Below the pieces are notes generated by a model. The model ran no database searches. It saw nothing but the letters and a program-made list of their open reading frames with translations, and was not told where the DNA came from. Both the position numbers and the translations under genes were made by a program. From assembly GCA_020773975.1 (NCBI GenBank), contig GCA_020773975.1_3638.1: a DNA stretch of 64,000 nucleotides. One strand, 5' to 3'. Source of the DNA: a phage. Of this stretch, positions 10,492-63,302 are shown one piece after another. The stretch's first letter is position 1. Each line of letters begins with the position of its first letter.

Positions 10492-11068
10492 ATGGGCTGT
10501 ACTGCCAGGTTATTTTTCCGCAGTGCGGACAATTCCAGCGCACTTTCCCGCTTCGTGACCTCTTCCTTCTGTTCTGCTTTTTCAACCAATCAGGCATGAC
10601 CAAACCTGCGCCCTGAACCATTGTTCTGCGGTTAAAGTTATTGATATTGAACGTCCGGCGCTTTGCTGCATCAGCAATGGAAAATGGCAACCAAACTATT
10701 CCTGGTTCGTTTTTGTTGGCGACGCTAAAGATGGTCGCTTTACTGAAGTCATCTGTTGGCAATCCACCGTGTTGAAGCCAGTAAACATCGTTGCCGTTCC
10801 AGCTACCTTTTTTGTAGGCCACATACGCAGTGCAATCTGACTCAATCAGGCTTTCTGTAGGGATGTACTGGCAATCAACGTGCCACACAGCCATTGCATC
10901 CACACTATCAGCGCAAACAGGTTGATCGATATCTCGACCACAATTCCAGGCTTTTTGGGCTTCTTCCAGCGTGTAAACATGAGCGCGATCGATATCATAA
11001 CTGTAACCATTGCCGTTATGGCAATGGAATGAGGCGTTATTACCCACAGTTTCACGCAAGCACATCAT
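10433..11068 (-). CDS. Cys-rich hypothetical protein
   Basis: C-terminal CPHCG...C...C zinc-ribbon-like cluster; start placed at internal Met to avoid overlap. Confidence 0.4.
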   Translation of the reverse strand: MMCLRETVGNNASFHCHNGNGYSYDIDRAHVYTLEEAQKAWNCGRDIDQPVCADSVDAMAVWHVDCQYIPTESLIESDCTAYVAYKKGSWNGNDVYWLQHGGLPTDDFSKATIFSVANKNEPGIVWLPFSIADAAKRRTFNINNFNRRTMVQGAGLVMPDWLKKQNRRKRSRSGKVRWNCPHCGKITWQYSPYDFEGCRDHNCEGWVCGRF

Positions 11069-11082
11069 GTAAAAACGGTTGC

Positions 11083-11532
11083 TCACTGGTTGCCTCCGTT
11101 GCGAAGCTGTTCCGCACAATGCCGCAGGGCATCCGTAGCATCTTTAAGCGTAACCATCTCGTCATCATCCAGTCCTGCTCCCCTCGCATCCATGACAAAC
11201 GCTGCGCAAAGGTCGTTAAACACTTCAGCCCGTATTTCAGCCAGAAAAGCATCGGTGGCTGGGGTTTTGATATCATAAATTTCAGGAAGAATCTCTTCCC
11301 ATGTGACGATATCACCATTCAAATGCCAATCGGCAATCCCACTGGAGTTATCAGCAACATCGTGGACAGCTTTAATCGCTCTGTGCAGGGCTATATTCTC
11401 AGCAACCAATTCTGCACAACGAGTCTCCAGTTCTGAGATTTTCTTTTTATTATGGTATCCCTTTTCTAAAAGAGTTGCGCATTTACTACCTAGGCGTTTG
11501 ATTTCATTGGTGTACACTGATTTCTCAGTCAT
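11083..11532 (-). CDS. hypothetical protein
   Basis: ORF in GC-richer segment. Confidence 0.4.
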   Translation of the reverse strand: MTEKSVYTNEIKRLGSKCATLLEKGYHNKKKISELETRCAELVAENIALHRAIKAVHDVADNSSGIADWHLNGDIVTWEEILPEIYDIKTPATDAFLAEIRAEVFNDLCAAFVMDARGAGLDDDEMVTLKDATDALRHCAEQLRNGGNQ

Positions 11533-11752
11533 GGTTGGCTACCCCTTTCTTCAACAACTTGATGTTAGTTTTAAGTTCTGCAATTTGACACATAGCGTCA
11601 ATATTTGTGTCTTCTAACTTCTTAATTTCATCAAGAAGTGTCAATACAACCTCCGGTGTTACCATACTACGATAATCCGTCACCTCTTGATAAGTACCGC
11701 CATCTCTTGCTATCTCTGCTAACTTACGTAATTCTTGGTAGTCAATTTTCAT
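11525..11752 (-). CDS. hypothetical protein (prophage Ea22-like flavour)
   Basis: Short acidic coiled-coil ORF. Confidence 0.35.
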   Translation of the reverse strand: MKIDYQELRKLAEIARDGGTYQEVTDYRSMVTPEVVLTLLDEIKKLEDTNIDAMCQIAELKTNIKLLKKGVANHD

Positions 11753-12146
11753 AACTTGATAAGTCCTGCGTTGTTTTATTTACTACATCATATGCCTCTT
11801 TGAGCACCCAGTCAACAGCATCTTTCCATGCTCCGGTTTCGACTGGTGGATTCTCACGCTTAACCTGTTCATAGAAGCGCACTGCTTTAATCAATCCTTC
11901 TAAGGTTACAGGTGTGGTGTATAACGCCTGAATTTCGTAGTTTGGTCTGTCGTTACAATCCTCTTTTGTCGGTACATATTTCCAGTCACCAACCCACGGC
12001 TCCCCCTGAGAGTCCGTAACGCCTTTTTTCACGTAGCGATATCGCCATGCAACTGGTTGTTGGGTTGCTGCTTTAAGGCTTGGTGACGAAGATGGAAGCG
12101 CAACATTAGTCATTTCCGAGATGACAGGTTGATAACCATTGCTCAT
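11742..12146 (-). CDS. hypothetical protein
   Basis: ORF with PVAW motif shared with 12386-13048 and 61008-61418 products. Confidence 0.4.
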   Translation of the reverse strand: MSNGYQPVISEMTNVALPSSSPSLKAATQQPVAWRYRYVKKGVTDSQGEPWVGDWKYVPTKEDCNDRPNYEIQALYTTPVTLEGLIKAVRFYEQVKRENPPVETGAWKDAVDWVLKEAYDVVNKTTQDLSSYEN

Positions 12147-12321
12147 TTAAATCTCCTCCTGCCTCATATGCCACTTGTAACCAATACATAAATGTTTCAA
12201 TAGAAACACAACCACAATCCACATCAATCTGGTCATGTTGTTGTTCCAACCACTGCTGAAAACGTGATTTTTGAGTATCATTCTCTGGTTGTTCTTTTAT
12301 CATTATCACCCCCATCGGCAA
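12106..12321 (-). CDS. hypothetical protein
   Basis: 71-aa ORF. Confidence 0.3.
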   Translation of the reverse strand: MPMGVIMIKEQPENDTQKSRFQQWLEQQHDQIDVDCGCVSIETFMYWLQVAYEAGGDLNEQWLSTCHLGND

Positions 12322-12385
12322 ACTGAGTACACTGCAAAGGCTACAGCCATTACAACCCCTACCGTTGTGAATGCTTCAGGCCAAG

Positions 12386-13048
12386 TCATTGATTCATCCC
12401 CTTCTTTTTGAGCATAGCGGCACGACAGGCATTCCAGCCATCAACATAATCAAACGTATTGCTATCGTCTGGCTCGATTTCATCTGGTACTGCCAATGTC
12501 GGCTGGGCGGCAGCATTGGCAAAGGCTGCACGCAACCCTGTCTTAATCTCCTCTACCTCATCAGCACCTAGCGATGAATCTGACAGTGCATGATGGAATG
12601 CGTATGCCATGTCGTCGTTTACTGTTATCGGTTCCACTTTCTTTACTGTAAGTGTTGGCGGTACATGATACAACGGGATTACACGACGCGGGTCTGTACC
12701 TTTACCTGGTGGGTACGGCATTATCCAGCCTAAACCAATCTGATCAACATCCCGCAACTCCTCTTCGTCCGTCCATCCCACCGGTTCTGCTCTCAACTCC
12801 ACCTGCGCATTAGGGGAGGTGTAGAGTGGGATTCCTTTCCTCCCACCAGAAAATTCATTGCGAGCGTTATACTCACGACCATCTGCGTCCTCACACATCC
12901 ATGCTACAGGCTCTGTTTCCAGCACTGCCAGAGCAATTCGAGCCAGTTCTTGCGCTTCTTCTGCTGGCAGTACAACGTTGCCACCAAGTCCGTATGTTTC
13001 GCGCCATTGCTTGATTGTCAGCAGACGTTCTTTGGTAATAGTGGTCAT
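12386..13048 (-). CDS. hypothetical protein
   Basis: 220-aa ORF in GC-richer segment. Confidence 0.45.
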   Translation of the reverse strand: MTTITKERLLTIKQWRETYGLGGNVVLPAEEAQELARIALAVLETEPVAWMCEDADGREYNARNEFSGGRKGIPLYTSPNAQVELRAEPVGWTDEEELRDVDQIGLGWIMPYPPGKGTDPRRVIPLYHVPPTLTVKKVEPITVNDDMAYAFHHALSDSSLGADEVEEIKTGLRAAFANAAAQPTLAVPDEIEPDDSNTFDYVDGWNACRAAMLKKKGMNQ

Positions 13049-15183: not shown

Positions 15184-15501
15184 CATCAGTTCAGAGAGTT
15201 CGTTACGCTCTCCCGCACCATTACGTGCATAGCCACAAGATTTCTCCTGTGGGTCGGACTATCTCATCCTCCTGATATTAAGGAGGCCTCCCGTTTCGAC
15301 CGCACTTGCTGGCCTACTCTACTCGCTTTCACATTACTAGTGTGCTTTCGATAGTCTCTGAACGTTCATCCCATAGGGATGCTTCGCTGCGGATTAGCAT
15401 ATTGAACTTTTGCTACTTTTACGTATAAAAGCCAGCTTAGCCTTCCCGTCAATTAGAGAGGTTTTCGACATGCATTACTGCATGAAGCCACAATGTTATT
15501 T
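15184..15501 (-). ncRNA. group I self-splicing intron (ORF-less, 318 nt) in DNA polymerase gene
   Basis: P/Q/R/S-like elements AAUUGACGGGAAGG, AAUCCGCAGC, GUUCAGAGACUA, AGAUAGUCCGACC; IGS GUGG pairs with exon end CCAU; ends in G. Confidence 0.8.
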
Positions 15502-17913
15502 ATGGTAGTAGATAACCCTCCTGACACCTTGGTCGTACCATCCCCATTTCACCAATTCCCAATGGAACAGGACTCCCATGAGGTCAAACAATGAAGCACC
15601 ACCGTTTTGTTGGTAAGCATTCAGCAGAGAATGTTTAGAACGAGTCCAAATTTTACGCCCGTCCATGCCTGGAATATAGCGTCTCCCATTTGCCTCCCAG
15701 AATTTTTCCAACCACTCCCTACGCATTTTCAACCCGAAGTTACTATCCCAGAATGCATCTATTACAGCCTGTGCTCTATTAAGGGGGATACCCAGCATTG
15801 CGGCTATCTTAGGAGCTTGTGCTCCATACATAATTCCATACGTAACCCCCTTTCCTCCAGAGCGTGTTACCTCCTTTCCTGCTGCTATTGTGTATGCTCT
15901 TGCGTTTCGTTCATGGGCATCCTCTTCCATCATGATACGTAAATACTCACCACCATCAAACTCAAAAGCCCCTGCCGCTGCAATCATACCTTCTAAGTTA
16001 GATCCATCACAACCCATCAGGTAGTAGCCTTCAGGGACTGTCCAAAGACCCCGCATTTCTTTTCCCAACAAAACCTTCGGATCAGGCTTGGGCATGTTTG
16101 CGCAAACAGTATGCTTGCACCTGCCCGTGTTAGTGATTCCAGAAAAACGTGCTGGAAGTTTTCCGTCAATGTCTAAACGAGGGTGATTTAATAACCCTGT
16201 ATCCGTCTTATCCTCATCCATTGGGTCTAAAACAGATCGCCTGTTACGAAGTGATAGCCACTTAACAATCTGTTTTGCCATATGCACATCAATTTTCTCC
16301 AAATTTGGACACAGATGCCCAAAATTATCTTTTAATTGAGGAGATGTCGGTAACTGGCGTGCTTTACGCCGAAATTTCTTAAATATCTCTGAATAACCCC
16401 TTTCAGATGCATGGCGATGGTCAAACTTACGCTCTGAAATGTTGAATTTCTCATCTGAATCATTAAGGTAGTCAAGAATAAGAGATTTATACTCAGACTC
16501 TGCCAACTCTTCTATGTACTTCTTAACTAGTACATCAATTTCAGAATCTTCACGAGTCTTTTTAAATTGATCCTTAGTAACATCTTTTACGCGCCACAGT
16601 GTAGGTTTCCAACCAGCATCTTTGATCAAATATTTTTTAATATCATCCTGATTAGAGATTTTCATTGGAACCATTAAATCTGGCATTTTTCTGTTTCGAA
16701 GGTCTTCTTTAGCCTTCTCTAGAAGATCCGGCGGTAAAGGTTCGAGTGTGTTCTCTTTGGTTCGCTGGGAACGAATGAAATCACCGTATAAAGCCGGATC
16801 TTCAATGCCATTCTGGATGCAATATCTCTCCCCTGCTGCACTTACATCCCCATTGCTCTTAAAAGCTGTTTTTGGTGGAGCTTTAAACTCCAGAGCTTCC
16901 CTGTTAACAGGATAGCCAAGTTTATATTCCAACCAATTCCACCCATGATGAGATATATTACCCGCTGTGTCAAAAGGGTTAGCTGGGAATTTTGGTTGTT
17001 GAGATTTCGTCATCTCTTTTTTTGGAAGAAGTGGTTCTACCTCTTCTTCAATTTCTCGCATCATCTTATCTATGCGATCTCTTAATTTTTCTGCCTCCTC
17101 CCGATTAAAGTATACGCCTTGTATTTCTTGCTCTATCATCAAATAGTCTGTGAGCATTCTCCTACGTAATGCATTTTTCCAATTAATCTGGTGCATCCCG
17201 TGAGGTTTATCAGTGTACATAAACTGCTTGTCATCAGGCCATCGCGTACCATTTGACTCATCAATAAGAGCTTTCCACACAAGTTCGTTAATGATAACGT
17301 CTTCCCACACACGGTTTACATATTCCCACAATGGCTGATTACGCCAATCATCAATCTGCACTTTCTTGTTTGCTACACGATAACCCCATGCCAATAAGCC
17401 GTGTGGCCCAACCCTGTCACGTTTTCCTGTTACAGGGTTCAATACAGAATCTGGGCAGCCATTAGGCAATGGGCGATCTGGGTAAAGAACACGACTCATT
17501 GAAAGAGTGTCGTAAAGATTTACCTGTTTATTACCTATCGTCCCCATACATTTTAGGTCTTTGAACATGTCATATTCAATCCCAGAAAGTTTTTTCCACA
17601 GACGTAAATCATAGCCGAACAGGTTATGTATTGCTATCCCTCTTGGCTCGGTCTGCAACCAAGAGTAAAAATCATCATAAGAAAGGATACGTAAATTAAC
17701 ACCTTCTTTGCTGCGTGCAAAATTAACTGCACTCTGGTATTCCTTGTGAGCAGGATCGAGAAACAACACCCAGTTATTTACAGCATATTCTTTAAAAAGT
17801 GTGCAGTGATATTTAGTTGCCTCTTCTAATAATCCGTCAGCTTCGTTATCTCCGACAAAAAGCCCTTTCATACTCCTCCTATTCAAGATGGGCTTGACTG
17901 TATCGTCGCCCAT
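15502..17913 (-). CDS. family A DNA polymerase, exon 1
   Basis: Motif B RSGGKGVTYGIMYGAQ; ORF runs 2 codons into the intron before a stop. Confidence 0.85.
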
Positions 17914-29607: not shown

Positions 29608-30642
29608 TCAAGACACCTCGTTAAGTTGTTCCATGTACCAACTACGGGCTTTATTTGTTGTAAATTTTGCCACGTCTTTCATAGAAAGAGAATTGGCTTC
29701 TAACACATCTGCTTCTTCTTTGTTGATATCGCGGTTAACCCATGCGATAAATGCCCCCAGAGATGCGATGTCCAATCCAATTTCTTGCAACCCTTGTCGT
29801 AAACGGTTCTCAGTAACTGCATACTCCACAAAATCTTTGATAGATTGCAGTTTCACAGGATCAACAGCAGCCAGGGTTTTCACTTTAGAAACAGAATGTT
29901 TTTGCCCTTTCACTTTAAACCAAAGTGCAGAAACATGTGCCAAGTGGCGATCTTTAGGTGTCCATACCACACCCTCACCAACACCAGATACGCCAAAATA
30001 TTTACCTACTGGACACTCTTTTTCCACACCTTCGGTAATCTGTGCAATTTCTGATTGCACTGTCTCTGGCATGTTAAAAGGAATATCCAGTTCCCACTTA
30101 CCAAAAGTTAAAATATTATAAATACGTTGTTCTGGTAATCCAATGCCAAGAATATCGTTTAAAGCTAACCATTTCCGATGGTCATTCTCTTTTCCTACTG
30201 CCACACGGAAAATAGTAAAGAAAGGCATGATTTCAGATACCGCAACACCTTTCTGGATACCTTTCCCTGCAAATTCCCCAGCGATTTCTACTGGGAACTT
30301 AAATTCAATACCACGATCTTCGCAGATCTGTTTGACTTGCTCCAACAGGCCTTTAGGGTCTTTTTCAACCATAAAGGCCATAAACCCATAATTATCTTCT
30401 TCCAGAGACAAAACGCGTTCTTTGGACTGGTATACAACCTCATTTTCAGAATTAAAGACTACACGGCAATTAGTCCCGTGAATTTTAACTGTTCCTACAT
30501 AAGGAATGAGATATTGGTCTGGAGAGGCAACCTTACGCTTTATATTGCCATTCTCATCACGACCATCATAAGTCAGACGGTCATTAACCGCTCGGATAAC
30601 ATTGCGAAATTGACTAGTGCTTGGGTACTTAGTTGCTTGCAT
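29608..30642 (-). CDS. RNA ligase, Rnl2 family
   Basis: Motif I KIHGTN; GEFAGKGIQKGV; EGVVW; FKVKGQKH. Confidence 0.8.
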   Translation of the reverse strand: MQATKYPSTSQFRNVIRAVNDRLTYDGRDENGNIKRKVASPDQYLIPYVGTVKIHGTNCRVVFNSENEVVYQSKERVLSLEEDNYGFMAFMVEKDPKGLLEQVKQICEDRGIEFKFPVEIAGEFAGKGIQKGVAVSEIMPFFTIFRVAVGKENDHRKWLALNDILGIGLPEQRIYNILTFGKWELDIPFNMPETVQSEIAQITEGVEKECPVGKYFGVSGVGEGVVWTPKDRHLAHVSALWFKVKGQKHSVSKVKTLAAVDPVKLQSIKDFVEYAVTENRLRQGLQEIGLDIASLGAFIAWVNRDINKEEADVLEANSLSMKDVAKFTTNKARSWYMEQLNEVS

Positions 30643-31015
30643 TACTATCTTCCTTATTAATAAAAGTCACACCAAGAGTTGCCTGGGCAAGAAGTTTCGT
30701 GATCTCCTGGCTCCATACAGGACTGGAGATAAAATGTTGTAATTGGAGGCTACCTAAGCGATAGGCGCTGTTCATCGTAATAGCATAGATCTCCCCATCG
30801 TGCATAATCAGACTTTCGACAACAGAAGTCCTGATATTAGAACCACTAAATCCACGCTTTTTGAGGTCATCTGCTAAGTATCCGCAGATACAACGCACAT
30901 CTTTTGTATCACCAAAACCGAAATAGGGTTCAGCACCAAACAGGATACCAGCGTATCTCTTCCCACAGACATAAGTATCTTTAGATACGCCTGTTACAGA
31001 TTTACTTTCCATCAT
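30629..31015 (-). CDS. hypothetical protein
   Basis: ORF. Confidence 0.4.
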   Translation of the reverse strand: MMESKSVTGVSKDTYVCGKRYAGILFGAEPYFGFGDTKDVRCICGYLADDLKKRGFSGSNIRTSVVESLIMHDGEIYAITMNSAYRLGSLQLQHFISSPVWSQEITKLLAQATLGVTFINKEDSNASN

Positions 31016-31171
31016 TGTCCCTCCACATCGTCAATATCTTCCATACCATCTTGCCACAGAACTTCATAGCAAGCGTCATAAATTGCGCTCATAGCATCTT
31101 TACGATCTAACACATCTACAATTTTTGGATCAATACTTTTAATTGCTTCCGCAATTTTATCGTAAGCAATA

Positions 31172-31780
31172 TCAGGATGCATGTTCTCTTTTGCCATCTG
31201 GGATCTCCTCTTCGTTTAAGACATAAATTGTCACATCACAATCATGGAGAACAGATTCTATCATAGTTTCTATGATTTTCCAATCCCCACCTGCTAGTCC
31301 AGCACCTATTTTTGGCAGCCCGATCTTATAATCAGACATAAAGCCATCTGTGTGCCTTTGCAAACAATCTCGCATTGCTGCTAAAGAATCGTAAAGGGCG
31401 TTATAATTCAGATCCCTCACACCCATTCTACGCCCATTATATCCGTATTGTGTGTACAGATTAAAACCCGCCAGCTTACCTTCGTTCATGACAGCCCAAG
31501 TATAACTGCCCAGTTTTGTTCGATCACCTTTCTCTGTCTTTAAATCTTCAGCATACATTTTTGGGAATGTATTCTTTATTTCTTTAGCAATTCCAGACCC
31601 CATGGTGCAAAATGTATTACAACCATGAGCTATCACATTAACATCCCTTTTAAGTGCTGCCTCTATTAAGCAACCAACTTTATACTTAAGCATTGTCTGA
31701 TACCTCTTCGCATTCGTATGGATAGATATCCAGTCTTTTCCCATTCCATTCGCAAGAGTAACACTCAAGAAAACTACCAT
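31172..31780 (-). CDS. macro-domain protein (ADP-ribose binding or hydrolysing)
   Basis: NVIAHGCN...GSGIAKEI and IGLPKIGAGLAGG resemble the macro-domain pocket motifs. Confidence 0.55.
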   Translation of the reverse strand: MVVFLSVTLANGMGKDWISIHTNAKRYQTMLKYKVGCLIEAALKRDVNVIAHGCNTFCTMGSGIAKEIKNTFPKMYAEDLKTEKGDRTKLGSYTWAVMNEGKLAGFNLYTQYGYNGRRMGVRDLNYNALYDSLAAMRDCLQRHTDGFMSDYKIGLPKIGAGLAGGDWKIIETMIESVLHDCDVTIYVLNEEEIPDGKREHAS

Positions 31781-32497: not shown

Positions 32498-33706
32498 TTA
32501 ATTTAAAATTGCATCTACATCTTTTGCAAAGTTCTTGTGATATTCAGTAATAATCTGCATGACAACAGGATACTTCTTAAGTAACTTCGCTGGCAGTCTG
32601 TCACGAAGGCCATCTAACAAAATACCCTTCCCTGTAGAACTGTCATTAATAAACATCATGAAGACAGATGATACAAAATCACGGTTGGAATGAGCATCAT
32701 CTTTACCAAAGTTATCATACAGATATTGCAAGAAATTGGCTGAGAAGTCAATAATCTGATCATCTGTGTAGTTGGTATTCTTCATAGCCTTACGTAGCCA
32801 GATGCAACCTTGTGATCCTAGCGTCCACAATACATCAGAGCTATCAGAGCCAGTGTGTTCCTTAATTGAACCATCCATTACTTTCTCAATGGGGACCATA
32901 TCAGCAACGCGAGTATGGTAATACCATAACTCTTTCATTAACGGCCCACCAATACACCCTTGCAAAGCAGCCATTGCAAGACGGGAAGTAAGATCACCAT
33001 CCTCATACGCATACAGAATATCACTTGCAGTAACCCAAGTTCGTGGTGTGGCATATGCAGGACTGTTAATCTCATACATGGCCTCGAAGTTTTCCAGTTT
33101 ATCGGGATTGGCCTGGATAAAACCAATTACTGATGGATGCACATTTTTACGCAACGCATAATCCTGCATCCACACAGAGGCATCGTAATCAAGTTCCACA
33201 ACAATAAAACGGTTAGCCAAAGGAGCTTCCATCATGGTCACTGCCGTACCATCACCAGGACGGTTCCCTGCCGCTGCAAAAACTGCACCTTTTGGAAAGG
33301 TGTACTTACCAATTTTATGATCCAAAACAATCTGGAAAGCTACTTTCTGTAAGTAGTTATCAGCATGTAAAAGTTCGTCAAGGAAAATAATACCTTCCCA
33401 ATCTGGGTCTTCTGGCCAGAAATCTGGTAGCGCATAGACTGTACGTGTTTTTCCATTATCGTCTGTTACAGGAATCTGTACACCTACTACGTCTGTCGGA
33501 TCTTTATCCGCAAGACGAAAATCAACGAGATTATCATCTCGTTCACCAAACATCTCATTGGCAACTTGCTTCATGACTTGACTCTTACCAAGCCCAGCAC
33601 CACCAAACATCATAAGTGCTTTGTTTGCCTTCTTACAAAATTTCATGAGGCTTGGAATATCACGGAGTGTAACACGATGATCTTCAAAAATATTTCTACT
33701 AGACAT
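32498..33706 (-). CDS. AAA+ ATPase, MoxR/AAA_5-like
   Basis: Walker A GGAGLGKS; Walker B IIFLDELLHA. Confidence 0.6.
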   Translation of the reverse strand: MSSRNIFEDHRVTLRDIPSLMKFCKKANKALMMFGGAGLGKSQVMKQVANEMFGERDDNLVDFRLADKDPTDVVGVQIPVTDDNGKTRTVYALPDFWPEDPDWEGIIFLDELLHADNYLQKVAFQIVLDHKIGKYTFPKGAVFAAAGNRPGDGTAVTMMEAPLANRFIVVELDYDASVWMQDYALRKNVHPSVIGFIQANPDKLENFEAMYEINSPAYATPRTWVTASDILYAYEDGDLTSRLAMAALQGCIGGPLMKELWYYHTRVADMVPIEKVMDGSIKEHTGSDSSDVLWTLGSQGCIWLRKAMKNTNYTDDQIIDFSANFLQYLYDNFGKDDAHSNRDFVSSVFMMFINDSSTGKGILLDGLRDRLPAKLLKKYPVVMQIITEYHKNFAKDVDAILN

Positions 33707-34488: not shown

Positions 34489-34704
34489 CTAATCCTCCCA
34501 TTTTATCCATAAAGGGTATTCTGCAACATGCACTTTCTTACCCTTTTTGTTAATAAAAGTATACTCAACAAACTTTGCTATGTAAAACCTATTGTAATCC
34601 TCTGTACCTTTAACAGGACAGTCTGTTTTCCTTCTCTCCACCCATTCTCTGTGGATCACCGCTTTGTTCTTTGGATCAAATGGATGTGGTTGATAAACAT
34701 TCAT
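34489..34704 (-). CDS. hypothetical protein
   Basis: ORF. Confidence 0.3.
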   Translation of the reverse strand: MNVYQPHPFDPKNKAVIHREWVERRKTDCPVKGTEDYNRFYIAKFVEYTFINKKGKKVHVAEYPLWIKWED

Positions 34705-35201
34705 TATTTCCCCTCGAATCTTTTTCTTGCATCAGCAAGTTTAAGATGCATTTCATGGTATTTCTTTAACCTTGCCAAATCCTTATCAGATAAGGATTTA
34801 AGACGTTTTACGTCCATATTGTCTTTTAAATCAGCGAGTTTTACACGAATCGCATCATAATTAGTACAGATGCCCTCAATGTACTCTTCTTCAGTCAGGC
34901 TCTGTTTCTTTGTTAGCAGAAGAACTGCATCTTTTACTCTGTTAGTGAACCCTAACATTACCAAATCGTAAGCTGTAACTTTAGTATCCTCAAGGATATC
35001 GTGAAGGACACCGATTGCCATTAGCTGTAAGTCATCATTACCAAGTTCATGCATCACCCTTAATGGGTGAAGAATGTATGGCATTCCACCACGATCTTTC
35101 TGCTTAAGATGGTTTTCAGAGGCCAACTTTACAGCTAAAGCCAACTCCTGATGGGGTCTTAAATCTTGCATATTACTGGGGACAGACTTCGATTGTACCA
35201 T
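34704..35201 (-). CDS. small alarmone hydrolase (SpoT/RelA-type HD domain)
   Basis: YILHPLRV...GVLHDILEDT matches the (p)ppGpp hydrolase HD motif. Confidence 0.7.
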   Translation of the reverse strand: MVQSKSVPSNMQDLRPHQELALAVKLASENHLKQKDRGGMPYILHPLRVMHELGNDDLQLMAIGVLHDILEDTKVTAYDLVMLGFTNRVKDAVLLLTKKQSLTEEEYIEGICTNYDAIRVKLADLKDNMDVKRLKSLSDKDLARLKKYHEMHLKLADARKRFEGK

Positions 35202-36019
35202 TTATATGTCTCTTCCATGTTAAAGGGTTTTATACCGATATTATCAAAATCTACAAGAGAATCAAGAAAAAATTCTCCTTTGTACCCAGCCATTTCTATC
35301 ATTGAGCGTTCCTCTTGGGTAGGGATCTCCCCCAAGATAAGCTCTTTTAGCTCCTTTTCTACAACACGATGGTACATTACTTCTTGGGTATTACACACCA
35401 AGTAGTAGTGCGATTTCTTATTCTCTACGTTTGGCGTGTTGGCTATCTTAATTGCAGCATGACCTACATAATCATACATCTTTGTTTGGTAAAACATTCC
35501 ATAACAACCCGCCAGAGAAAAGGATCCAAAACTGGAGTTAATCTCCCTGATGTGGAGAATATCTGGGTTTGTTCTGACATAGGAAGCCTTTATGGAAAAC
35601 ATATTACCATCCCAATGCCCCAATTGGGACAAAACAGACAGGAATTTTTGTGTTCGTGCAGACAACGATCCTGCTAAACACATTCCATAATTAAAGCCTT
35701 GGAAAGAAATTGTTATTTGCCCACAAGTAATATCATAGCTTGAAAACTCATGCGTTAAGTTTACGCTTGCCATGTAAGCACGCTCGTCAGCTTCAACATA
35801 ATATTTCCAGTAACATTTCCTATCCCGAGTATCAAAACACATAAGCACAGCATGTTTTATGAGTTCTATTAAAGGGTTTGGTTCATGGTGGCGACTTTCA
35901 ACTTCCCTTATAATGGCTTCACGGAATACATTAAAATCTATTTTCATAGATTTTGTGTGATACAGGTAGGCATCAAAGTAAGAAGAAATGTTTTCGTCAG
36001 GTATCTTTGTCATGGTCAA
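35159..36019 (-). CDS. hypothetical protein
   Basis: 286-aa ORF, first gene of the leftward block. Confidence 0.45.
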   Translation of the reverse strand: MTMTKIPDENISSYFDAYLYHTKSMKIDFNVFREAIIREVESRHHEPNPLIELIKHAVLMCFDTRDRKCYWKYYVEADERAYMASVNLTHEFSSYDITCGQITISFQGFNYGMCLAGSLSARTQKFLSVLSQLGHWDGNMFSIKASYVRTNPDILHIREINSSFGSFSLAGCYGMFYQTKMYDYVGHAAIKIANTPNVENKKSHYYLVCNTQEVMYHRVVEKELKELILGEIPTQEERSMIEMAGYKGEFFLDSLVDFDNIGIKPFNMEETYKWYNRSLSPVICKI

Positions 36020-37444: not shown

Positions 37445-38881
37445 ATGCAAAAAGACGAACATGAAATGATTGCCAAGTTAGAGAAGGATGCTGTAAAAGT
37501 TATCCAATCGGCACGAATAGCTCTTTTAAAGTACAGACCATTTTACGGGACTTTGTTAAGTTCTCTACCCTTAGTTGCTAACTGGAAATGGTTGCCAACA
37601 GCAGCGACTGATCACAAAAACCTCTACTTCAACCCTGAGTTTATTATGGGTATGCCTGAAGAAAGGAAGAAGAAGGTTTTTGAGCGTGTGGATAATCACC
37701 CCACAATGACACAACAAGAAAAAGATGACTATAAAGACTATGTGAACGTATTTTATCGTAAGAAAACACCCAAAGAGGTTGTTGTTATTCTTATGCACGA
37801 GCTACGTCATATTACTAACGATCATTTATCCCGTGGAAAAGCATTTGATTCTAAAACCTACAACACAGCAGCAGATCATTATATTAACACGGATTTAGTG
37901 GTGTCTGATCTTGGGCCACGCTCCAGCCAGATGTGTTTCTTCCCAATGGGGAAACAGACAACCTTTGACAAAGGTAAAGAGTTTGGGTTTATGGCTTATT
38001 GCTACTGTGATTTTAATTTCCACGGTAAGACAGCGGAGGAGATTTACAGTCTCATAAACAAAGGCCAACCGTCTGTTGGTAAACCTATGGGCACACACAT
38101 AGGTGATTATGATCAAGACAGCAATATCCTAGGATATGAAGATCCTCACCCAGTGCCAAGCCAAGCAGAAAAAGATGATAATATGTCGTGGTCATCTGGT
38201 CTTATCGAGGCCGCGATGGAAGCAGCGGGAGGAGAGGGGCCGAAAGAGGTGCGTGACGTTATTGCAAGAATGCGTAAACCACACATAAATTATCTTCAGA
38301 TAATCAAACAGCGTATGCTTTCTCGGATCAAGTCTAACCTGACATACAGGAAACCATCTCGTAGGTCTGGATCTATGACACAGGCACTTCGGCAGTATGG
38401 AGCTATTGGAAAAAAACAGCATATTGTTTTACCAGGAAGGGAGTACGATAATACTATAGATATAGTTATTGGCTTCGATGTGTCTGGATCAATTTCGAAG
38501 GCGAATTTAGACAAAATCTTCGGAGAAATTGTAGGATTATGCCAGCTTTACCGCGTTTTTCGCGTGACATTGTTCTGTTGGTCAACAAAAGTCGGAGAGG
38601 TTAAAGTTTATACACATGATAATATCAAGGAAATGCTTGATTATAAAGTAAATTCTACGGGTGGGACACTTGCAGCATCGGCTTTTGAGTATATTGAAAA
38701 TAACATTTTTGATGCAAAAGACGTTATTATTTTTACAGACGGATATATAGAGGATTTAAGACACAAGAAAAAAGATTGGGGACGCAAATGGGATATTCTT
38801 TGGGTTATTTGTGGTCGCGGAAATAATAAATTTGTACCACCTTTCGGAAGGGCTGTAAATTTAGATGAACACGCAAAATAA
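37445..38881 (+). CDS. putative metallopeptidase (HExxH) fused to vWA domain
   Basis: LMHELRHI zincin-like motif; C-terminal MIDAS-like DVSGSIS. Confidence 0.55.
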   Translation: MQKDEHEMIAKLEKDAVKVIQSARIALLKYRPFYGTLLSSLPLVANWKWLPTAATDHKNLYFNPEFIMGMPEERKKKVFERVDNHPTMTQQEKDDYKDYVNVFYRKKTPKEVVVILMHELRHITNDHLSRGKAFDSKTYNTAADHYINTDLVVSDLGPRSSQMCFFPMGKQTTFDKGKEFGFMAYCYCDFNFHGKTAEEIYSLINKGQPSVGKPMGTHIGDYDQDSNILGYEDPHPVPSQAEKDDNMSWSSGLIEAAMEAAGGEGPKEVRDVIARMRKPHINYLQIIKQRMLSRIKSNLTYRKPSRRSGSMTQALRQYGAIGKKQHIVLPGREYDNTIDIVIGFDVSGSISKANLDKIFGEIVGLCQLYRVFRVTLFCWSTKVGEVKVYTHDNIKEMLDYKVNSTGGTLAASAFEYIENNIFDAKDVIIFTDGYIEDLRHKKKDWGRKWDILWVICGRGNNKFVPPFGRAVNLDEHAK

Positions 38882-57494: not shown

Positions 57495-57519
57495 AGCCCC
57501 GCATGGGGCTTTTATTTTT
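57495..57519. terminator. bidirectional rho-independent terminator
   Basis: AGCCCC-gcat-GGGGCT with A-run upstream and T-run downstream. Confidence 0.7.
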
Positions 57520-58258: not shown

Positions 58259-58311
58259 TCTCTCTCCTTTCTCTCTACCAGAAAACCCTGCAAAGCAGGG
58301 TTTTGTTACTA

Positions 58312-59175: not shown

Positions 59176-60237
59176 TTAATCATTCATCTTATCCCAACAC
59201 ATTTGTTGTGCTGTCATCAAAACATCGGCAGCAAAGTTAAGATCTGTTGTTTTCGGTAAATGCGTGTTCTTGTACAGAGTGTTACGAATATAATCATCCT
59301 TCTCTTCTGCCCAAGCCAAGAGCTTCTCCAAAGACCATGCGCCATTCCTGATTGCAAGAAGCTCCTGAGCATCAGGTCTTTTTACTAAGACTTTCCCTTC
59401 CGTCAGGATTTCTTCCGCTTGACGCATCAGCCTAACCAAGTGCATACCATGCTTTGAATCGAAGCCATACTTTTCTTCTAACTCATGACGTGCTGGGTTT
59501 CTGTTTTCAACCCATGTCCAGTAGTTCTTATGCTTTTCCTTTGCTTGTTTATGCTCATCTGCCAGATATTTAACGATTAAAATTGGCTTACGTTTCTTAT
59601 CTTCGTCAGAGAACTGCTCGTATGGAACTTTACGAATAGAACCATCAGAGTTAAACAAACCAGCATTGTCGCGTGTTCCGATTACACCATAGATATTATC
59701 ACCCATGGGTAAAAAGACACACAACTTGTTAAGATCATCCAACATTTTCTGGAAGTCTTTGTGTTTTGTAAGATTATCATCCATCCACGAGTGTGTCAAG
59801 CGCATGAACTCTTTTTGTGTTGGTTGCTCTTTAGGCTGCGGGTTATTAATCCATTTATTATGGCCTTTGATACGCTTCAGTTGCGCCATCGCATACCCAG
59901 AAAAAGTAAAAGCAACTTTACTGGATAGGAGTTTTGGCGCTTGCTCGCGTAGGTACTCGTAAACATCTGAAGTTTGCAGAATGTCACTTCTATCAACAAA
60001 CATAAGCTCGATGATGTTTGGGTTCATATCAACGAACAACTTCATGTAGTTTGTTAGCTCATACAGCTTACCATCCTCTTCATCAATAAGAGTCATTTCT
60101 CTGTCAACGAAAAACGGGGTAAGAATGCTTTTAGGCTCTGCACAATAAATTCCGCGAATATCCACATCGGATGTTGGTAAGTTAGTTCCATAGGCAATGC
60201 TACCACTGTAGCAGCGCATTAGTTCTAGTTTCTTCAT
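59176..60237 (-). CDS. Pol-beta superfamily nucleotidyltransferase
   Basis: GSIAYGTNLPTSDVDIRG (GS-x9-SDxD) NTase signature. Confidence 0.5.
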   Translation of the reverse strand: MKKLELMRCYSGSIAYGTNLPTSDVDIRGIYCAEPKSILTPFFVDREMTLIDEEDGKLYELTNYMKLFVDMNPNIIELMFVDRSDILQTSDVYEYLREQAPKLLSSKVAFTFSGYAMAQLKRIKGHNKWINNPQPKEQPTQKEFMRLTHSWMDDNLTKHKDFQKMLDDLNKLCVFLPMGDNIYGVIGTRDNAGLFNSDGSIRKVPYEQFSDEDKKRKPILIVKYLADEHKQAKEKHKNYWTWVENRNPARHELEEKYGFDSKHGMHLVRLMRQAEEILTEGKVLVKRPDAQELLAIRNGAWSLEKLLAWAEEKDDYIRNTLYKNTHLPKTTDLNFAADVLMTAQQMCWDKMND

Positions 60238-61007: not shown

Positions 61008-61418
61008 TTACTCACCTTTCAGCTTAAAACTTTTCAATGTTTTGATAAAGTTTTTCTCTGCTGGTGTGTAAGTGTGAACGAAACCTGTTTCTTCACAGGT
61101 GTAGGTATCATTAACCTCCATTGCGTGTGGAGGGATAAATGCACCATCAGGAACAGACTTATATTCCGGGTTGTAGATAAATTCCGGCAGTACAACAGCT
61201 ACAGCAGTCATTGCTCCGTTCAAGGCTTTCTTTTCTTCACGCCACCACGCTACTGGGTAAGTCTCTAAAGACATTGCCTGGGTAAGAAAATCTTCAAGCA
61301 CGGACTGATAACCGCCATTCAAAACAATAATGGTCTTATCTTCTTCTTTCCAGCATTTCAGCCAATGGTGTGCAGTGATCTGCTCTGGTGTATATGCTTC
61401 ACCACTATGCAAAACCAT
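61008..61418 (-). CDS. hypothetical protein
   Basis: ORF. Confidence 0.4.
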   Translation of the reverse strand: MVLHSGEAYTPEQITAHHWLKCWKEEDKTIIVLNGGYQSVLEDFLTQAMSLETYPVAWWREEKKALNGAMTAVAVVLPEFIYNPEYKSVPDGAFIPPHAMEVNDTYTCEETGFVHTYTPAEKNFIKTLKSFKLKGE

Positions 61419-61496
61419 AAGCTCTGCAATGGCGTGTGCTGATTGGATACCCGCATGGATACCGGAGATATATTGATTAACAATACATTCTTGTTT

Positions 61497-62057: not shown

Positions 62058-63302
62058 TTAGAATAACATATCTCTGCTGATTGCTTTACGAATAGCATCA
62101 ATACGGGCTACTCGCACAGCTTCACCAATCTCTTTACCCTTCTTACCCTTTTCCAGAAGGGGTTTTGTTATAGCTTTAGAATCAACTTTTGTCATAGCGT
62201 CGTAGGCTTCCAACAAAAAATGACCTTGAAGATAAGGTTTATGTCTAAAATCACCACCTCTTCCTTTAGCATCACAATAACACGCATCTGCAAGTGTGTA
62301 AACCTTCATTTTCTGGTCAGCTTGTCCAGCAGCTTCAAATATTTTCATGATGCTTTTTGGTTTCAAACCGTTGTTACCATCTCTGGGAGAGATGGTGTGC
62401 ACTTTTGTGTGATTTTCTGCAACATATTTTGCCGTGTCACGATAGATATTATAAATCTTCAACCTTTCACACAAGGATTGGATAACATCTACCCCAGCTT
62501 TCTCATGACCATGAAGATTACCATTGTCCTTGTAAGTTATAGCTTTGCCAAAATCATGGCACAGCACAGCAAACTTGGTCAGTGGATCAGCTTCTAATTC
62601 ATCAGCAACCCGTAACGCTAGAATTGTATGGGTGTAAGCATCCCCCTCTGGGTGATGTTCTTTAGGTTGTTGCACACGACGTAGGGCTTCCAGTTCAGGA
62701 AGTTCGCCAATACGTCCCATATTGACAGCAAAAGACCTGAAATAACCACTCTTTAAGGCTTTCAACATTTCCTTCCATTTACGATAGGCGCTTATTTCTG
62801 CCAAAGAGTGTCGGTTGTCATAAGCCAGTTTAAAAGTTTCTGGATGGATATGCCATTCTTCCCCAAGCTGGGCTTTAAATCTAAACAGGCGTAGAATACG
62901 TAATGGATCTTCAATAAACGCCTCCGATGTATGACGTAATGTTTTAAGTCCTAAGTCAACCTGACCACCAAAAGGATCAATAATCTCACCACTGTCAACA
63001 TCCATCGCCATGGAGTTGATGGTAAGATCTCTACGTGCCAAATCCTCTTCCAGAGTTACATCTGGACTAAAGCATACCTCAAATCCTTTATGGCCTTCGC
63101 CTGTTTTTCTTTCTGTGCGTGCAAGAGCGTACTCTTCTTTTGTTTCTGGGTGAAGATAAACTGGAAAAGATGCGCCAACTTGTGTGAACCCTCTTTTCAG
63201 CATCTCTTCATGCGTAGCACCAACAACCACATAATCACGGTCTGATATTTCACGACCTAACAATTTATCTCTTACTGCGCCACCTACCAAGTATACCTTC
63301 AT
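62058..63302 (-). CDS. cca: tRNA nucleotidyltransferase (class II CCA-adding enzyme) with HD domain
   Basis: MKVYLVGGAVRDKLLGR...DRD head domain; FPVYLHPETKEEYALARTERK; HD motif HHPEGDAYTHT...CHDFGK; near-colinear with E. coli Cca from memory. Confidence 0.85.
   Translation of the reverse strand: MKVYLVGGAVRDKLLGREISDRDYVVVGATHEEMLKRGFTQVGASFPVYLHPETKEEYALARTERKTGEGHKGFEVCFSPDVTLEEDLARRDLTINSMAMDVDSGEIIDPFGGQVDLGLKTLRHTSEAFIEDPLRILRLFRFKAQLGEEWHIHPETFKLAYDNRHSLAEISAYRKWKEMLKALKSGYFRSFAVNMGRIGELPELEALRRVQQPKEHHPEGDAYTHTILALRVADELEADPLTKFAVLCHDFGKAITYKDNGNLHGHEKAGVDVIQSLCERLKIYNIYRDTAKYVAENHTKVHTISPRDGNNGLKPKSIMKIFEAAGQADQKMKVYTLADACYCDAKGRGGDFRHKPYLQGHFLLEAYDAMTKVDSKAITKPLLEKGKKGKEIGEAVRVARIDAIRKAISRDMLF

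What the first reader, a model, noticed from the sequence alone, without database searches (positions are those of the whole stretch)
29608..30642. Rnl2-type RNA ligase: with the CCA-adding enzyme and a Pol-beta nucleotidyltransferase, a candidate RNA-repair toolkit
The ligase has all nucleotidyltransferase motifs (KIHGTN, GEFAGKGIQKGV, EGVVW, FKVKGQKH). Elsewhere in the window are a class II CCA-adding enzyme (62058-63302) and a GS-x9-SDVD nucleotidyltransferase (59176-60237). No polynucleotide kinase-phosphatase and no tRNA gene were seen in this window. Together these could heal and reseal tRNAs cut or 3'-trimmed by host anticodon nucleases or tRNA-targeting defences, a less documented combination than the T4 Pnk + Rnl1 pair.
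Basis: partly seen in the sequence, partly recalled or inferred. Interest (0 to 1): 0.55.

Follow-up and report, generated by a model that had tools for sequence, protein, structure and literature searches.

The report
Phage Rnl2 RNA ligase, repair arsenal
This E. coli phage carries a genuine T4-Rnl2-type RNA ligase, an RlaP end-filling enzyme and a CCA-repair enzyme, but this RNA-repair combination is already described for phages, and the closest complete relative also carries the classical Rnl1 ligase with a kinase and phosphoesterases just outside the window.

Summary
ORF 29608-30642(-) is a 344-aa Rnl2-type RNA ligase: every residue essential in T4 Rnl2 is conserved, including the C-domain pair, and full-length T4 Rnl2 is the best structural match. 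59176-60237(-) is an RlaP nucleotidyltransferase. 62058-63302(-) is an E. coli-type CCA addition/repair enzyme with an HD domain. The window has no tRNA gene and no Pnkp.

The window is an Avunavirus-like phage (92-97% identical to Av-05/TH18), and relatives already annotate the gene as "RNA ligase 2". The ligase + RlaP + CCA (+ Macro, tRNAs) arsenal was described by Burroughs & Aravind (2016) and Iyer et al. (2021), and RlaP was characterised biochemically in 2025. The closest complete genome (TH18) carries 16 tRNA genes, all with encoded CCA. About 26-28 kb past the window it has a kinase, cREC protein, Rnl1 and metallophosphoesterase cluster. So this is an addition to the T4-style pathway, not an alternative.

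New details: a small beta-barrel protein mislabelled "methyltransferase" overlaps the ligase start and is fused to Rnl2 in other phages. Other Rnl2 homologues are fused to the same metallophosphoesterase family. RlaP sits in a conserved CCA / PTH2-like / DUF7205 / RlaP block.

Verdict: new member of a known kind, modest interest.

The parts
29608..30642 (-). Rnl2-type ATP-dependent RNA ligase, 344 aa: nucleotidyltransferase domain (about residues 1-248), flexible linker (249-259), all-helical C-terminal domain (262-343)
   Evidence: Pfam PF09414 E=2.3e-9 and PHROG 548 E=4e-73. AF2 model pLDDT 89.5. Best Foldseek match is full-length T4 Rnl2 2hvr_A, E=2.7e-11. Family HMM against T4 Rnl2 gives E=1e-15, with K53, H55, T57, N58, E123, F145, E223, K243, K245, R280 and D305 matching T4 K35, H37, T39, N40, E99, F119, E204, K225, K227, R266 and D292. 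The same residues are invariant across 50 homologues.
30629..31015 (-). Rnl2 partner protein, 128 aa: small beta-barrel plus two helices, labelled 'methyltransferase' in databases. Its stop overlaps the ligase start by 14 nt.
31012..31197 (-). 61-aa ORF of unknown function (PHROG 35483) whose ends overlap the Macro gene and the partner gene
   Evidence: ORF coordinates overlap both neighbours. PHROG 35483 E=3.7e-40.
31172..31780 (-). Macro-domain protein of the Poa1p/TARG1/DarG-like group, two genes upstream of the ligase. Relatives annotate a shorter 173-aa form.
   Evidence: Pfam Macro E=2e-4, just under the cutoff. PHROG 335 E=4.9e-62. PDB matches 2afc (9e-8), yeast ADP-ribose 1''-phosphate phosphatase 6lfu (5e-7) and TARG1. 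NCBIfam DarG macro E=2e-9. Same position in SSE121. In Vibrio phage Ceto the homologue lies between Prs and NAMPT.
59176..60237 (-). RlaP-family Pol-beta nucleotidyltransferase, 353 aa (G12-S13 ... D24-x-D26)
   Evidence: Pfam RlaP PF10127 E=2.2e-14, 54 bits against a cutoff of 23. PHROG 388 E=3.3e-79. 203 phage records by tblastn. Family biochemistry (adds 1-2 NMP to RNA 3'-OH) in PMC12776372.
60234..60614 (-). DUF7205 protein, 126 aa. Its stop overlaps the RlaP start by 4 nt.
   Evidence: Pfam DUF7205 E=2.8e-32. Same position next to RlaP in Av-05, TH18 and SSE121, not detected in phiTE, ABPH49 or RaK2.
61008..61496 (-). Divergent PTH2-like (peptidyl/aminoacyl-tRNA hydrolase-like) gene between CCA and RlaP. 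It is frameshifted in this window by a 5-nt deletion just after codon 7.
   Evidence: PHROG 3668 'hydrolase'. Pfam PTH2 PF01981 is sub-threshold (E=0.0016 for the intact Av-05 copy), 19 of 33 family members hit PTH2, and no other family recurs. UniRef names the NINP13076 homologue 'Aminoacyl-tRNA hydrolase'. The deletion is shown by alignment with Av-05, TH18 and SSE121. The gene is also present between CCA and RlaP in ABPH49.
62058..63302 (-). Class II CCA-adding/repair enzyme with a C-terminal HD phosphohydrolase domain (E. coli Cca type)
   Evidence: Pfam PolyA_pol 5e-22, HD 1.2e-7, PolyA_pol_RNAbd 3.7e-5. NCBIfam PRK10885 415 bits over residues 5-412, against PcnB at 81 bits. PDB 1miv CCA-adding enzyme 7e-20. 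PHROG 2244 1.4e-143.

Best explanation
The gene encodes an ATP-dependent, Rnl2-type RNA ligase that seals 3'-OH/5'-phosphate nicks. It is one component of a dispersed RNA (mainly tRNA) damage-repair and counter-defence arsenal of an Avunavirus-like E. coli phage. It is not the core of a self-contained three-gene toolkit. Shown here: the fold, the full set of T4 Rnl2 catalytic residues and the C-domain nick-sealing residues; the identities of RlaP and of the HD-bearing CCA enzyme; and the gene layouts. Inferred: the window holds two separate sub-modules. Module A is Macro, a 61-aa ORF, the partner beta-barrel and Rnl2, four genes with overlapping ends. The ligase works with its partner domain, which is fused to it in other phages. 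It can directly reseal breaks that already carry 3'-OH/5'-P, such as nicks made by metal-dependent Toprim or HNH tRNA nucleases. Module B is the CCA/HD enzyme, a PTH2-like hydrolase, DUF7205 and RlaP. It acts on RNA 3' ends: RlaP adds back 1-2 lost nucleotides and Cca rebuilds CCA, and its HD domain may remove 2',3'-cyclic or 3'-phosphates. By analogy with the closest complete genome, breaks with 2',3'-cyclic phosphate/5'-OH ends are healed by a P-loop kinase, a cREC protein and a metallophosphoesterase. These are encoded next to an Rnl1-family ligase about 26-28 kb beyond the window, beside NAD-salvage genes and a 16-tRNA cluster.
For: Ligase class. Link between this Rnl2 clade and RNA end healing: metallophosphoesterase-Rnl2 fusions P0031/P0033, whose phosphoesterase is 38% identical (E=5e-37) to the stand-alone enzyme in TH18's Rnl1 cluster; metallophosphoesterase adjacent to Rnl2, with Rnl1 + ATPase 3-4 kb away, in Cr30; Rnl1, kinase, phosphoesterase, Prs, Macro, NAMPT and Rnl2 within 10 kb in Ceto. 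Healing module in the closest genome: AAA_33 kinase (PHROG 505 'polynucleotide kinase' 8e-11), cREC_REC (1.7e-15), Rnl1 PF09511 (1.2e-17), Metallophos. Partner domain fused or adjacent. CCA is for repair, not maturation: all 14 and all 16 tRNA genes of relatives encode CCA. The CCA...RlaP block is conserved in SSE121, phiTE and ABPH49. A separate ATP-dependent DNA ligase exists in TH18. Literature: RlaP adds 1-2 NMP to RNA 3'-OH and prefers broken-tRNA mimics (PMC12776372). The phage repair inventory is described in PMC7824862. The Toprim nuclease P2-OLD leaves 5'-P/3'-OH ends, and both T4 Rnl1 and T4 Rnl2 reseal a single stem nick (PMC12445682).
Against: There is no experimental evidence for any of these phage proteins. 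The physiological role of even T4 Rnl2 is unknown (my own knowledge). The ligase lies 29 kb from RlaP/CCA and is embedded among replication and early genes (rIIA/B, helicase, primase). The healing/Rnl1 cluster is seen in TH18 and its sibling records, not in the window's own genome, which cannot be inspected beyond 64 kb. The ligase scores far below the NCBIfam Rnl2 equivalog cutoff (34 against 197 bits), so its substrate preference could differ from T4 Rnl2. The Macro-Rnl2 linkage is confined to Avunavirus/Seunavirus, and in Ceto the Macro gene sits with the NAD-salvage genes instead. The PTH2-like assignment is sub-threshold, and that gene is frameshifted in this window.
Confidence: 0.6

Rival explanations
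1. One reading: Rnl2 + RlaP + CCA-adding enzyme form a self-sufficient repair toolkit that replaces the T4 Pnk + Rnl1 pair in a phage lacking both.
For: None of Pnkp, Rnl1 or tRNA genes is present in the 64-kb window. The HD domain of the CCA enzyme could supply some 3'-end healing.
Against: The closest complete genome encodes Rnl1 plus a kinase, a cREC protein and a metallophosphoesterase, and 16 tRNAs. Rnl1 is present across Vequintavirinae. No 5'-kinase exists among the three genes. The ligase is not linked to the other two (29 kb apart), and relatives keep RlaP + CCA without this Rnl2.
Confidence: 0.05
2. The ligase serves phage nucleic-acid metabolism rather than counter-defence. Examples would be sealing nicks with an RNA 3'-OH strand in RNA:DNA hybrids during replication or recombination, or processing phage transcripts. 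RlaP and CCA would be unrelated to it.
For: The gene lies in a long leftward block with rIIA/rIIB, helicase, primase-helicase and DNA polymerase. T4 Rnl2 seals nicks in RNA:DNA hybrids in vitro (my own knowledge). The in vivo role of Rnl2 has never been established.
Against: This clade is repeatedly fused or adjacent to RNA end-healing phosphoesterases and to Rnl1 + kinase in three different phage families. A dedicated ATP-dependent DNA ligase is present in TH18.
Confidence: 0.15
3. The CCA / PTH2-like / RlaP block is housekeeping for the phage's own tRNA pool (3'-end quality control, turnover, recycling of peptidyl-tRNA during heavy translation). It would not be a response to defence-inflicted damage.
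For: The lineage carries 14-16 tRNA genes. E. coli Cca itself is a housekeeping repair enzyme (NCBIfam name). The PTH2-like gene is dispensable enough to be frameshifted here.
Against: All phage tRNA genes already encode CCA, and the host has its own Cca and Pth. RlaP family members are linked to RNA-repair operons and prefer damaged tRNA mimics.
Confidence: 0.15
4. The ORF is a DNA ligase or an inactive ligase relic.
For: Covalent nucleotidyltransferase motifs are shared with DNA ligases, which appear as weaker structural matches.
Against: There is no OB domain. The helical Rnl2-type C-domain is present, with R280/D305 conserved. T4 Rnl2 outranks all DNA ligases. All catalytic residues are invariant across 50 homologues at 44-92% identity, which indicates purifying selection. 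A separate DNA ligase exists in TH18.
Confidence: 0.03

Closest known systems
Bacteriophage T4 RNA ligase 2 (Rnl2, gp24.1; PDB 1s68, 2hvq, 2hvr)
   Same: Two-domain architecture (nucleotidyltransferase domain plus all-helical C-domain). All essential residues are conserved, including the C-domain R266/D292 equivalents. It is the best structural match over both domains.
   Different: Only about 17% identity, and far below the NCBIfam Rnl2 equivalog cutoff (34 against 197 bits). About 18 extra residues lie before motif I. T4 D120 and K209 are replaced by R146 and T228. It has a separate or fused N-terminal beta-barrel partner domain that T4 Rnl2 lacks.
T4 Pnkp + Rnl1 tRNA repair pathway (counter to PrrC)
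   Same: The lineage (TH18) has an Rnl1-family ligase clustered with a 5'-kinase-like P-loop protein and phosphoesterases, which follows the same heal-and-seal logic.
   Different: Healing is split among an AAA_33 kinase, a cREC domain protein and a metallophosphoesterase, instead of one kinase-HAD Pnkp. No T4 Pnkp homologue was found beyond a weak P-loop hit. This module lies outside the window.
RlaP nucleotidyltransferases (PF10127; Pseudomonas PfRlaP/PaRlaP; T4 NrdC.11)
   Same: Pfam match well above threshold, with the GS...DxD active-site signature. The family adds 1-2 NMP to RNA 3'-OH ends (PMC12776372).
   Different: Here the gene is not next to an RNA ligase. It sits in a conserved block with a CCA-adding enzyme, a PTH2-like protein and DUF7205. 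Only the N-terminal 120 residues match the Pfam model.
E. coli multifunctional CCA addition/repair protein (Cca, PRK10885)
   Same: End-to-end alignment, with head, RNA-binding and HD domains.
   Different: Slightly below the NCBIfam equivalog cutoff (415 against 451 bits). Phage-encoded, in a genome whose relatives' tRNA genes all encode CCA.
Phage RNA-repair inventories described by Burroughs & Aravind 2016 and Iyer et al. 2021 (PMC7824862)
   Same: The same component list: tRNAs, Rnl1/Rnl2, kinase, 2H/HAD/cREC phosphoesterases, RlaP, CCA-adding enzyme, Macro, NAD salvage.
   Different: That survey covered jumbo phages. This is a 134-kb Vequintavirinae phage. The partner-domain fusion, the metallophosphoesterase-Rnl2 fusion and the CCA / PTH2-like / RlaP block did not appear in the passages I read.

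Membership tests
Rnl2 family RNA ligases | Covalent nucleotidyltransferase motifs I, III, IIIa, IV and V with the catalytic lysine | tested here: met
   K53 (KIHGTN), E123 (GEFAG), F145, E223 (EGVVW) and K243/K245 (FKVKG) align with T4 K35, E99, F119, E204 and K225/K227. They are invariant in 50 homologues.
Rnl2 family RNA ligases | Signature all-helical C-terminal domain (no OB fold), with the R266/D292 equivalents needed for nick sealing | tested here: met
   The AF2 model has helices 262-343 after a flexible linker. Foldseek aligns 364 columns to full-length 2hvr_A. R280 and D305 align with R266 and D292 and are invariant.
Rnl2 family RNA ligases | Score at or above the curated equivalog threshold (NCBIfam TIGR02307) | tested here: not met
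   34.1 bits against a cutoff of 197, although the alignment spans residues 48-333. It is a divergent subfamily (PHROG 548), not a close T4 Rnl2 orthologue.
Rnl2 family RNA ligases | ATP-dependent sealing of 3'-OH/5'-PO4 nicks in duplex RNA | not testable with these tools
   Needs adenylylation and nick-sealing assays.
RlaP (PF10127) nucleotidyltransferases | Pfam model above the gathering score, with the Pol-beta GS...DxD active site | tested here: met
   54.2 bits against 23. G12-S13, D24 and D26 read directly.
RlaP (PF10127) nucleotidyltransferases | Gene neighbourhood with an RNA ligase (the origin of the name) | tested here: not met
   29 kb from Rnl2 in the window and about 30 kb from Rnl1 in TH18. 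It is instead 1.8 kb from the CCA enzyme, an arrangement conserved in SSE121, phiTE and ABPH49.
RlaP (PF10127) nucleotidyltransferases | C-terminal helical domain forming the RNA-binding cleft, and a third catalytic Asp | not tested
No PDB sequence match. The Pfam match covers only residues 7-123.
Class II CCA-adding enzyme, E. coli multifunctional Cca type | PolyA_pol head, RNA-binding region and HD phosphohydrolase domain, and closer to Cca than to poly(A) polymerase | tested here: met
   Pfam domains. PRK10885 at 415 bits against PcnB at 81 bits.
Class II CCA-adding enzyme, E. coli multifunctional Cca type | Curated equivalog threshold | tested here: inconclusive
   414.7 bits against a cutoff of 451. 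CCA versus CC- or A-adding specificity cannot be read from the sequence with these tools.
T4-type Pnkp (kinase-HAD phosphatase) | Walker A kinase domain fused to a DxDxT phosphatase | tested here: not met
   A validated T4 Pnk probe gives no hit in the window. There is no DxDxT motif in any ORF of the window, Av-05 or TH18. Only a stand-alone AAA_33 kinase was found in TH18.
PTH2 peptidyl-tRNA hydrolase (for 61008-61496) | Pfam PF01981 above the gathering score | tested here: inconclusive
   19.1 bits against 23 for the intact Av-05 copy. 19 of 33 homologues give sub-threshold PTH2 hits and nothing else recurs. A family profile finds no PDB sequence.

The most novel reading that the evidence does not exclude
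Two things the evidence does not exclude. (1) The conserved CCA/HD / PTH2-like / DUF7205 / RlaP block is a dedicated tRNA 3'-end repair pathway, separate from anticodon-loop repair. RlaP would restore acceptor-end nucleotides upstream of CCA addition. Together with the nearby RelA/SpoT-type hydrolase, it would counter defences that trim, extend or pyrophosphorylate tRNA 3' ends. (2) The mislabelled 'methyltransferase' is a previously undescribed RFTS/SANTA-like beta-barrel accessory domain that defines a three-module Rnl2 subfamily and directs the ligase to its substrate.
Probability: 0.2. Interest if true: 0.55.

Novelty: new member of a known kind. Interest (0 to 1): 0.3.

Why it matters
tRNA-cleaving defences (PrrC, RloC, PARIS, retron Eco7, OLD, Schlafen-like nucleases) are now known to be widespread. 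The only phage repair pathway tested experimentally is still T4 Pnkp + Rnl1. Vequintavirinae-type coliphages are used in therapy and biocontrol. They carry a much richer arsenal that has never been tested: two ligases, a split healing module, RlaP, Cca, a PTH2-like protein, Macro, NAD salvage and 16 tRNAs. This lineage infects E. coli, so it would be a tractable system for finally assigning a biological role to Rnl2 and RlaP. For this finding in particular, the value is mostly corrective. The ligase is already annotated, the toolkit idea is already published, and the 'missing' Pnk/Rnl1 functions very probably lie just outside the window.

Tried and rejected
1. The HD phosphohydrolase (34704-35201) plus 'thymidylate kinase' (35159-36019) as a Pnkp-like healing pair. 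Rejected: the 286-aa protein has no Walker A motif and no Pfam or NCBIfam hit. The HD protein is RelA/SpoT-hydrolase-like.

2. A T4 Pnkp homologue in the window. None found.

3. The CCA enzyme being needed because phage tRNAs lack CCA. Rejected: 14/14 and 16/16 tRNA genes encode CCA.

4. The gene next to the ligase being a Hen1-like methyltransferase. Rejected: it is too small, has no methyltransferase family hit, and its fold matches the non-catalytic DNMT1 RFTS / SANTA barrel.

5. Av-05 as the complete-genome proxy. Rejected: its 103-114 kb segment is 100% identical to the T4-like phage phiC120, so the record is chimeric.

6. PTH2 identity via PDB. Neither the single sequence nor the family profile found anything. 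Only sub-threshold Pfam support exists.

7. Promoter scan of the ligase operon. Not above shuffled expectation.

8. Rfam. No repair-related RNA, only a group I intron.

9. Literature search for experimental tests of phage Rnl2 or CCA enzymes against defence systems. None found.

10. DUF7205 as a general RlaP partner. Not detected next to RlaP in phiTE, ABPH49 or RaK2.
Full report
**What the window is.** The 64-kb window comes from an Avunavirus-like myovirus (Vequintavirinae) of E. coli. The ligase region is 96.5-96.8% identical in DNA to Escherichia phages Av-05, vB_EcoM_TH18, 18-1-2, 19-1-2 and 24-2-1. The rest of the window is 92-96% identical to the same phages. In those records the gene is already annotated 'RNA ligase 2' or 'RNA ligase family protein'.

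**The observation.** ORF 29608-30642(-) encodes 344 aa with the four quoted motifs.
- It hits Pfam RNA_ligase (E=2.3e-9) and PHROG 548 'RNA ligase' over its full length (E=4e-73).
- ORF 59176-60237(-) has the GS-x9-SDVD signature and is Pfam RlaP, 'RNA repair pathway DNA polymerase beta family' (54 bits against a cutoff of 23).
- ORF 62058-63302(-) has PolyA_pol head, RNA-binding and HD domains. It aligns end to end with the E. coli-type 'multifunctional CCA addition/repair protein' at 415 bits, against 81 bits for poly(A) polymerase.
- No tRNA gene is present in the window.
- A T4 Pnk probe, validated against PDB 1ltq, finds no homologue in the window.

**Is it Rnl2-type?** Sequence similarity to T4 Rnl2 is weak. 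phmmer gives E about 0.007 over the N-terminal half only. NCBIfam's Rnl2 equivalog scores 34 bits against a cutoff of 197, although it aligns residues 48-333. I gathered 2,215 homologues, aligned 50 of them and predicted the structure (pLDDT 89.5).
- The model has a nucleotidyltransferase domain, a disordered linker (249-259) and a four-helix C-terminal domain.
- Foldseek ranks full-length T4 Rnl2 first (2hvr_A, E=2.7e-11, 364 aligned columns). It comes ahead of Rnl1, archaeal Rnl3, Naegleria Rnl5, trypanosome REL1 and all DNA ligases.
- A family HMM aligned to the T4 Rnl2 sequence (validated) gives E=1e-15. It maps K35, H37, T39, N40, E99, F119, E204, K225 and K227 onto identical residues K53, H55, T57, N58, E123, F145, E223, K243 and K245.
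- The C-domain residues R266 and D292 map onto R280 and D305. All of these are invariant in the family.

It is therefore a divergent but genuine member of the Rnl2 structural family, and it is under purifying selection.

**What surrounds the ligase.** Four minus-strand genes have overlapping ends: the Macro-domain protein (31172-31780), a 61-aa ORF (31012-31197), a 128-aa protein (30629-31015) and the ligase.
- The 128-aa protein is labelled 'methyltransferase' in PHROGs and GenBank but has no methyltransferase family hit.
- It is homologous to the N-terminal extensions of the longer Rnl2 proteins of Salmonella phage SSBI34 (E=7e-13) and Acinetobacter phage ABPH49 (E=3e-6). This is a fusion-versus-split pattern, and it marks the protein as a ligase partner.
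- The family is tiny: 26 representatives among 1.84 billion proteins.
- The partner and Macro genes keep their positions in Seunavirus SSE121.
- The Macro domain belongs to the Poa1p/TARG1/DarG-like group. In Vibrio phage Ceto its homologue lies between the NAD-salvage genes Prs and NAMPT, so its tie to the ligase is uncertain.

**Link to RNA end healing.** Two Rnl2 homologues (P0031 and P0033, about 525 aa) carry an N-terminal metallophosphoesterase. That domain is a full-length homologue (38% identity, E=5e-37) of a stand-alone enzyme in TH18.
- In Caulobacter phage Cr30 a metallophosphoesterase sits next to Rnl2, with Rnl1 and a P-loop ATPase 3-4 kb away.
- In the T5-like Vibrio phage Ceto, Rnl1, kinase, phosphoesterase, Prs, Macro, NAMPT and Rnl2 all lie within 10 kb.

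These recurrent links in three phage families are the best evidence that this Rnl2 clade works in RNA repair.

**The missing healing enzymes and tRNAs.** TH18 is a concatenation of the two 18-1-2 contigs (79,447 + 54,435 = 133,882 bp), and the window bridges their starts.
- About 26-28 kb beyond the window's right end, TH18 encodes an ATP-dependent DNA ligase and SIR2. These are followed by an AAA_33 P-loop kinase (PHROG 'polynucleotide kinase' 8e-11; weak T4 Pnk hit) and a cREC 'cyclic-phosphate processing' domain protein (1.7e-15). Then come an Rnl1-family ligase (PF09511, 1.2e-17) and a metallophosphoesterase.
- If the two contigs close into a circle, this cluster abuts Prs/NAMPT and a cluster of 16 tRNA genes. 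Ceto has the same arrangement, which supports that inference.
- Rnl1 homologues occur in 635 phage records, including rV5, FV3, phi92-like, Seunavirus and KB57-like phages. This Rnl2 occurs in only 153 records.
- Av-05 lacks the cluster, but its record is chimeric: 11 kb of it is 100.0% identical to the T4-like phage phiC120.

The lineage therefore has a T4-style heal-and-seal pathway with a split healing module, and Rnl2 is an addition to it. That this particular phage has the cluster is an inference from relatives at 92-97% identity.

**RlaP and CCA.** RlaP and the CCA enzyme are 1.8 kb apart. Between them lie two small membrane proteins, a PTH2-like gene, another membrane protein and a DUF7205 protein that overlaps the RlaP start by 4 nt.
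- The same block occurs in SSE121. A simpler form occurs in phiTE and ABPH49.
- rV5-like and phiTE-like phages have RlaP + CCA without this Rnl2.
- The 'hydrolase' in the block gives a consistent sub-threshold PTH2 signal: E=0.0016 for the Av-05 copy, 19 of 33 homologues hit PTH2, and no other family recurs. UniRef names one homologue 'Aminoacyl-tRNA hydrolase'.
- In this window the gene is frameshifted by a 5-nt deletion in a tattg-tattg repeat.
- All 14 Av-05 and all 16 TH18 tRNA genes encode CCA. The CCA enzyme is therefore not needed for their maturation, which favours a repair role.

**Comparison with the literature.**
- RlaP was named 'RNA ligase-associating Pol-beta' by Burroughs and Aravind (2016).
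- Iyer et al. 2021 (PMC7824862) describe the phage arsenal explicitly. It comprises tRNAs, RtcB/Rnl1/Rnl2, kinases and HAD/2H/cREC phosphoesterases, RlaP 'to restore lost nucleotides before ligation', the CCA-adding enzyme, and KptA/Macro.
- Carruthers et al. 2025 (PMC12776372) show that RlaP adds one or two NMPs to RNA 3'-OH ends, prefers broken-tRNA mimics and can restore aminoacylation of over-damaged tRNA. T4 NrdC.11 is an RlaP.
- The P2-OLD study (PMC12445682) shows that Toprim tRNA nucleases leave 5'-P/3'-OH ends. It also shows that a single stem nick is resealed by both T4 Rnl1 and T4 Rnl2 without end healing.
- I found no experiment on any phage Rnl2 or Cca in counter-defence.

**Mechanism proposed.**
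- Shown: the enzyme classes, the conservation of active sites, and the gene layouts and fusions.
- Inferred: Rnl2, working with its partner domain, seals 3'-OH/5'-P breaks in structured RNA. These are either made directly by metal-dependent nucleases or produced by the kinase, cREC protein and metallophosphoesterase. RlaP refills one or two lost 3' nucleotides. Cca, with its HD domain, rebuilds and cleans CCA ends. Phage tRNAs replace what cannot be repaired.

Confidence is about 0.9 for the enzymology and about 0.6 for the repair and counter-defence role.

**Verdict.** The finding is real and correctly identified, but ordinary for this phage group and already covered by published comparative genomics. 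The claim of an alternative to Pnk + Rnl1 does not hold. Three modest new observations came out of the work: the Rnl2 partner domain, the metallophosphoesterase-Rnl2 fusions, and the conserved CCA / PTH2-like / DUF7205 / RlaP block.

Noticed in passing
window 15236-15511 (-): Rfam group I catalytic intron (81 bits, E=4.6e-19, full model). It lies inside the DNA polymerase gene, which relatives annotate as several pieces interleaved with HNH homing endonucleases.
   Followed up: no
window 61400-61520 (-), around 61470: A 5-nt deletion within a tattg-tattg direct repeat frameshifts the PTH2-like 'hydrolase' gene after codon 7. Av-05, TH18 and SSE121 are intact. It could be a real pseudogene, a slippage variant or a sequencing error.
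   Followed up: yes
window 34704-35201 (-): A 165-aa HD protein resembling the RelA/SpoT hydrolase domain (NCBIfam spoT_relA 7e-14), i.e. a small alarmone hydrolase. Such enzymes can reverse tRNA 3'-CCA pyrophosphorylation by toxSAS defence effectors (10.1101/2021.04.30.441581). It could therefore belong to the same tRNA-protection theme.
   Followed up: partly
window 35159-36019 (-): A 286-aa protein carried in PHROGs and RefSeq as 'thymidylate kinase'. It has no Walker A motif and no Pfam or NCBIfam hit, so the label looks wrong.
   Followed up: partly
window 32498-33706 (-) and 37445-38881 (+): A MoxR-like AAA ATPase and a DUF2201 metallopeptidase/VWA protein lie a few kb apart on opposite strands. 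This is a known two-gene pairing of unknown role in phages.
   Followed up: no
window 10451-13048: A segment 93-96% identical to EaA/Ea22-type genes of P1, SJ46 and Stx-converting lambdoid phages. This suggests recent exchange with temperate phages or plasmids.
   Followed up: no
L003 13100-24100 (NC_025830.1 103.1-114.1 kb): The RefSeq Av-05 record contains about 11 kb that is 100.0% identical to the T4-like phage phiC120 (tk, vs, regB, ipI-III, e, denV-type genes). It lacks about 26 kb present in TH18, so the record appears chimeric or misassembled.
   Followed up: yes
L004-L006 (ON075799.1): The TH18 'complete genome' equals the two 18-1-2 contigs joined end to end (79,447 + 54,435 bp). The window shows the true junction is contig-1 start to contig-2 start, so the deposited order and orientation are arbitrary.
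   Followed up: partly
L006 40056-40841 (-); L005 31396-33984 (-): TH18 encodes a SIR2-family protein next to the DNA ligase and the RNA-repair cluster, and NAMPT + Prs (NAD salvage) next to the tRNA cluster. With the Macro protein in the window, this points to a NAD/ADP-ribose counter-defence theme.
   Followed up: no
window 57518-58318 (-): A 266-aa protein with a weak N-terminal HTH_3 match, annotated 'plasmid antitoxin with HTH domain' in Av-05. It lies just downstream of the RlaP block.
   Followed up: no
L011 6303-6896 (phiTE_127): In phiTE a 197-aa gene annotated 'histidyl tRNA synthetase' lies about 0.8 kb downstream of RlaP. This is another tRNA-related label in the same neighbourhood, and I did not check it.
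   Followed up: no
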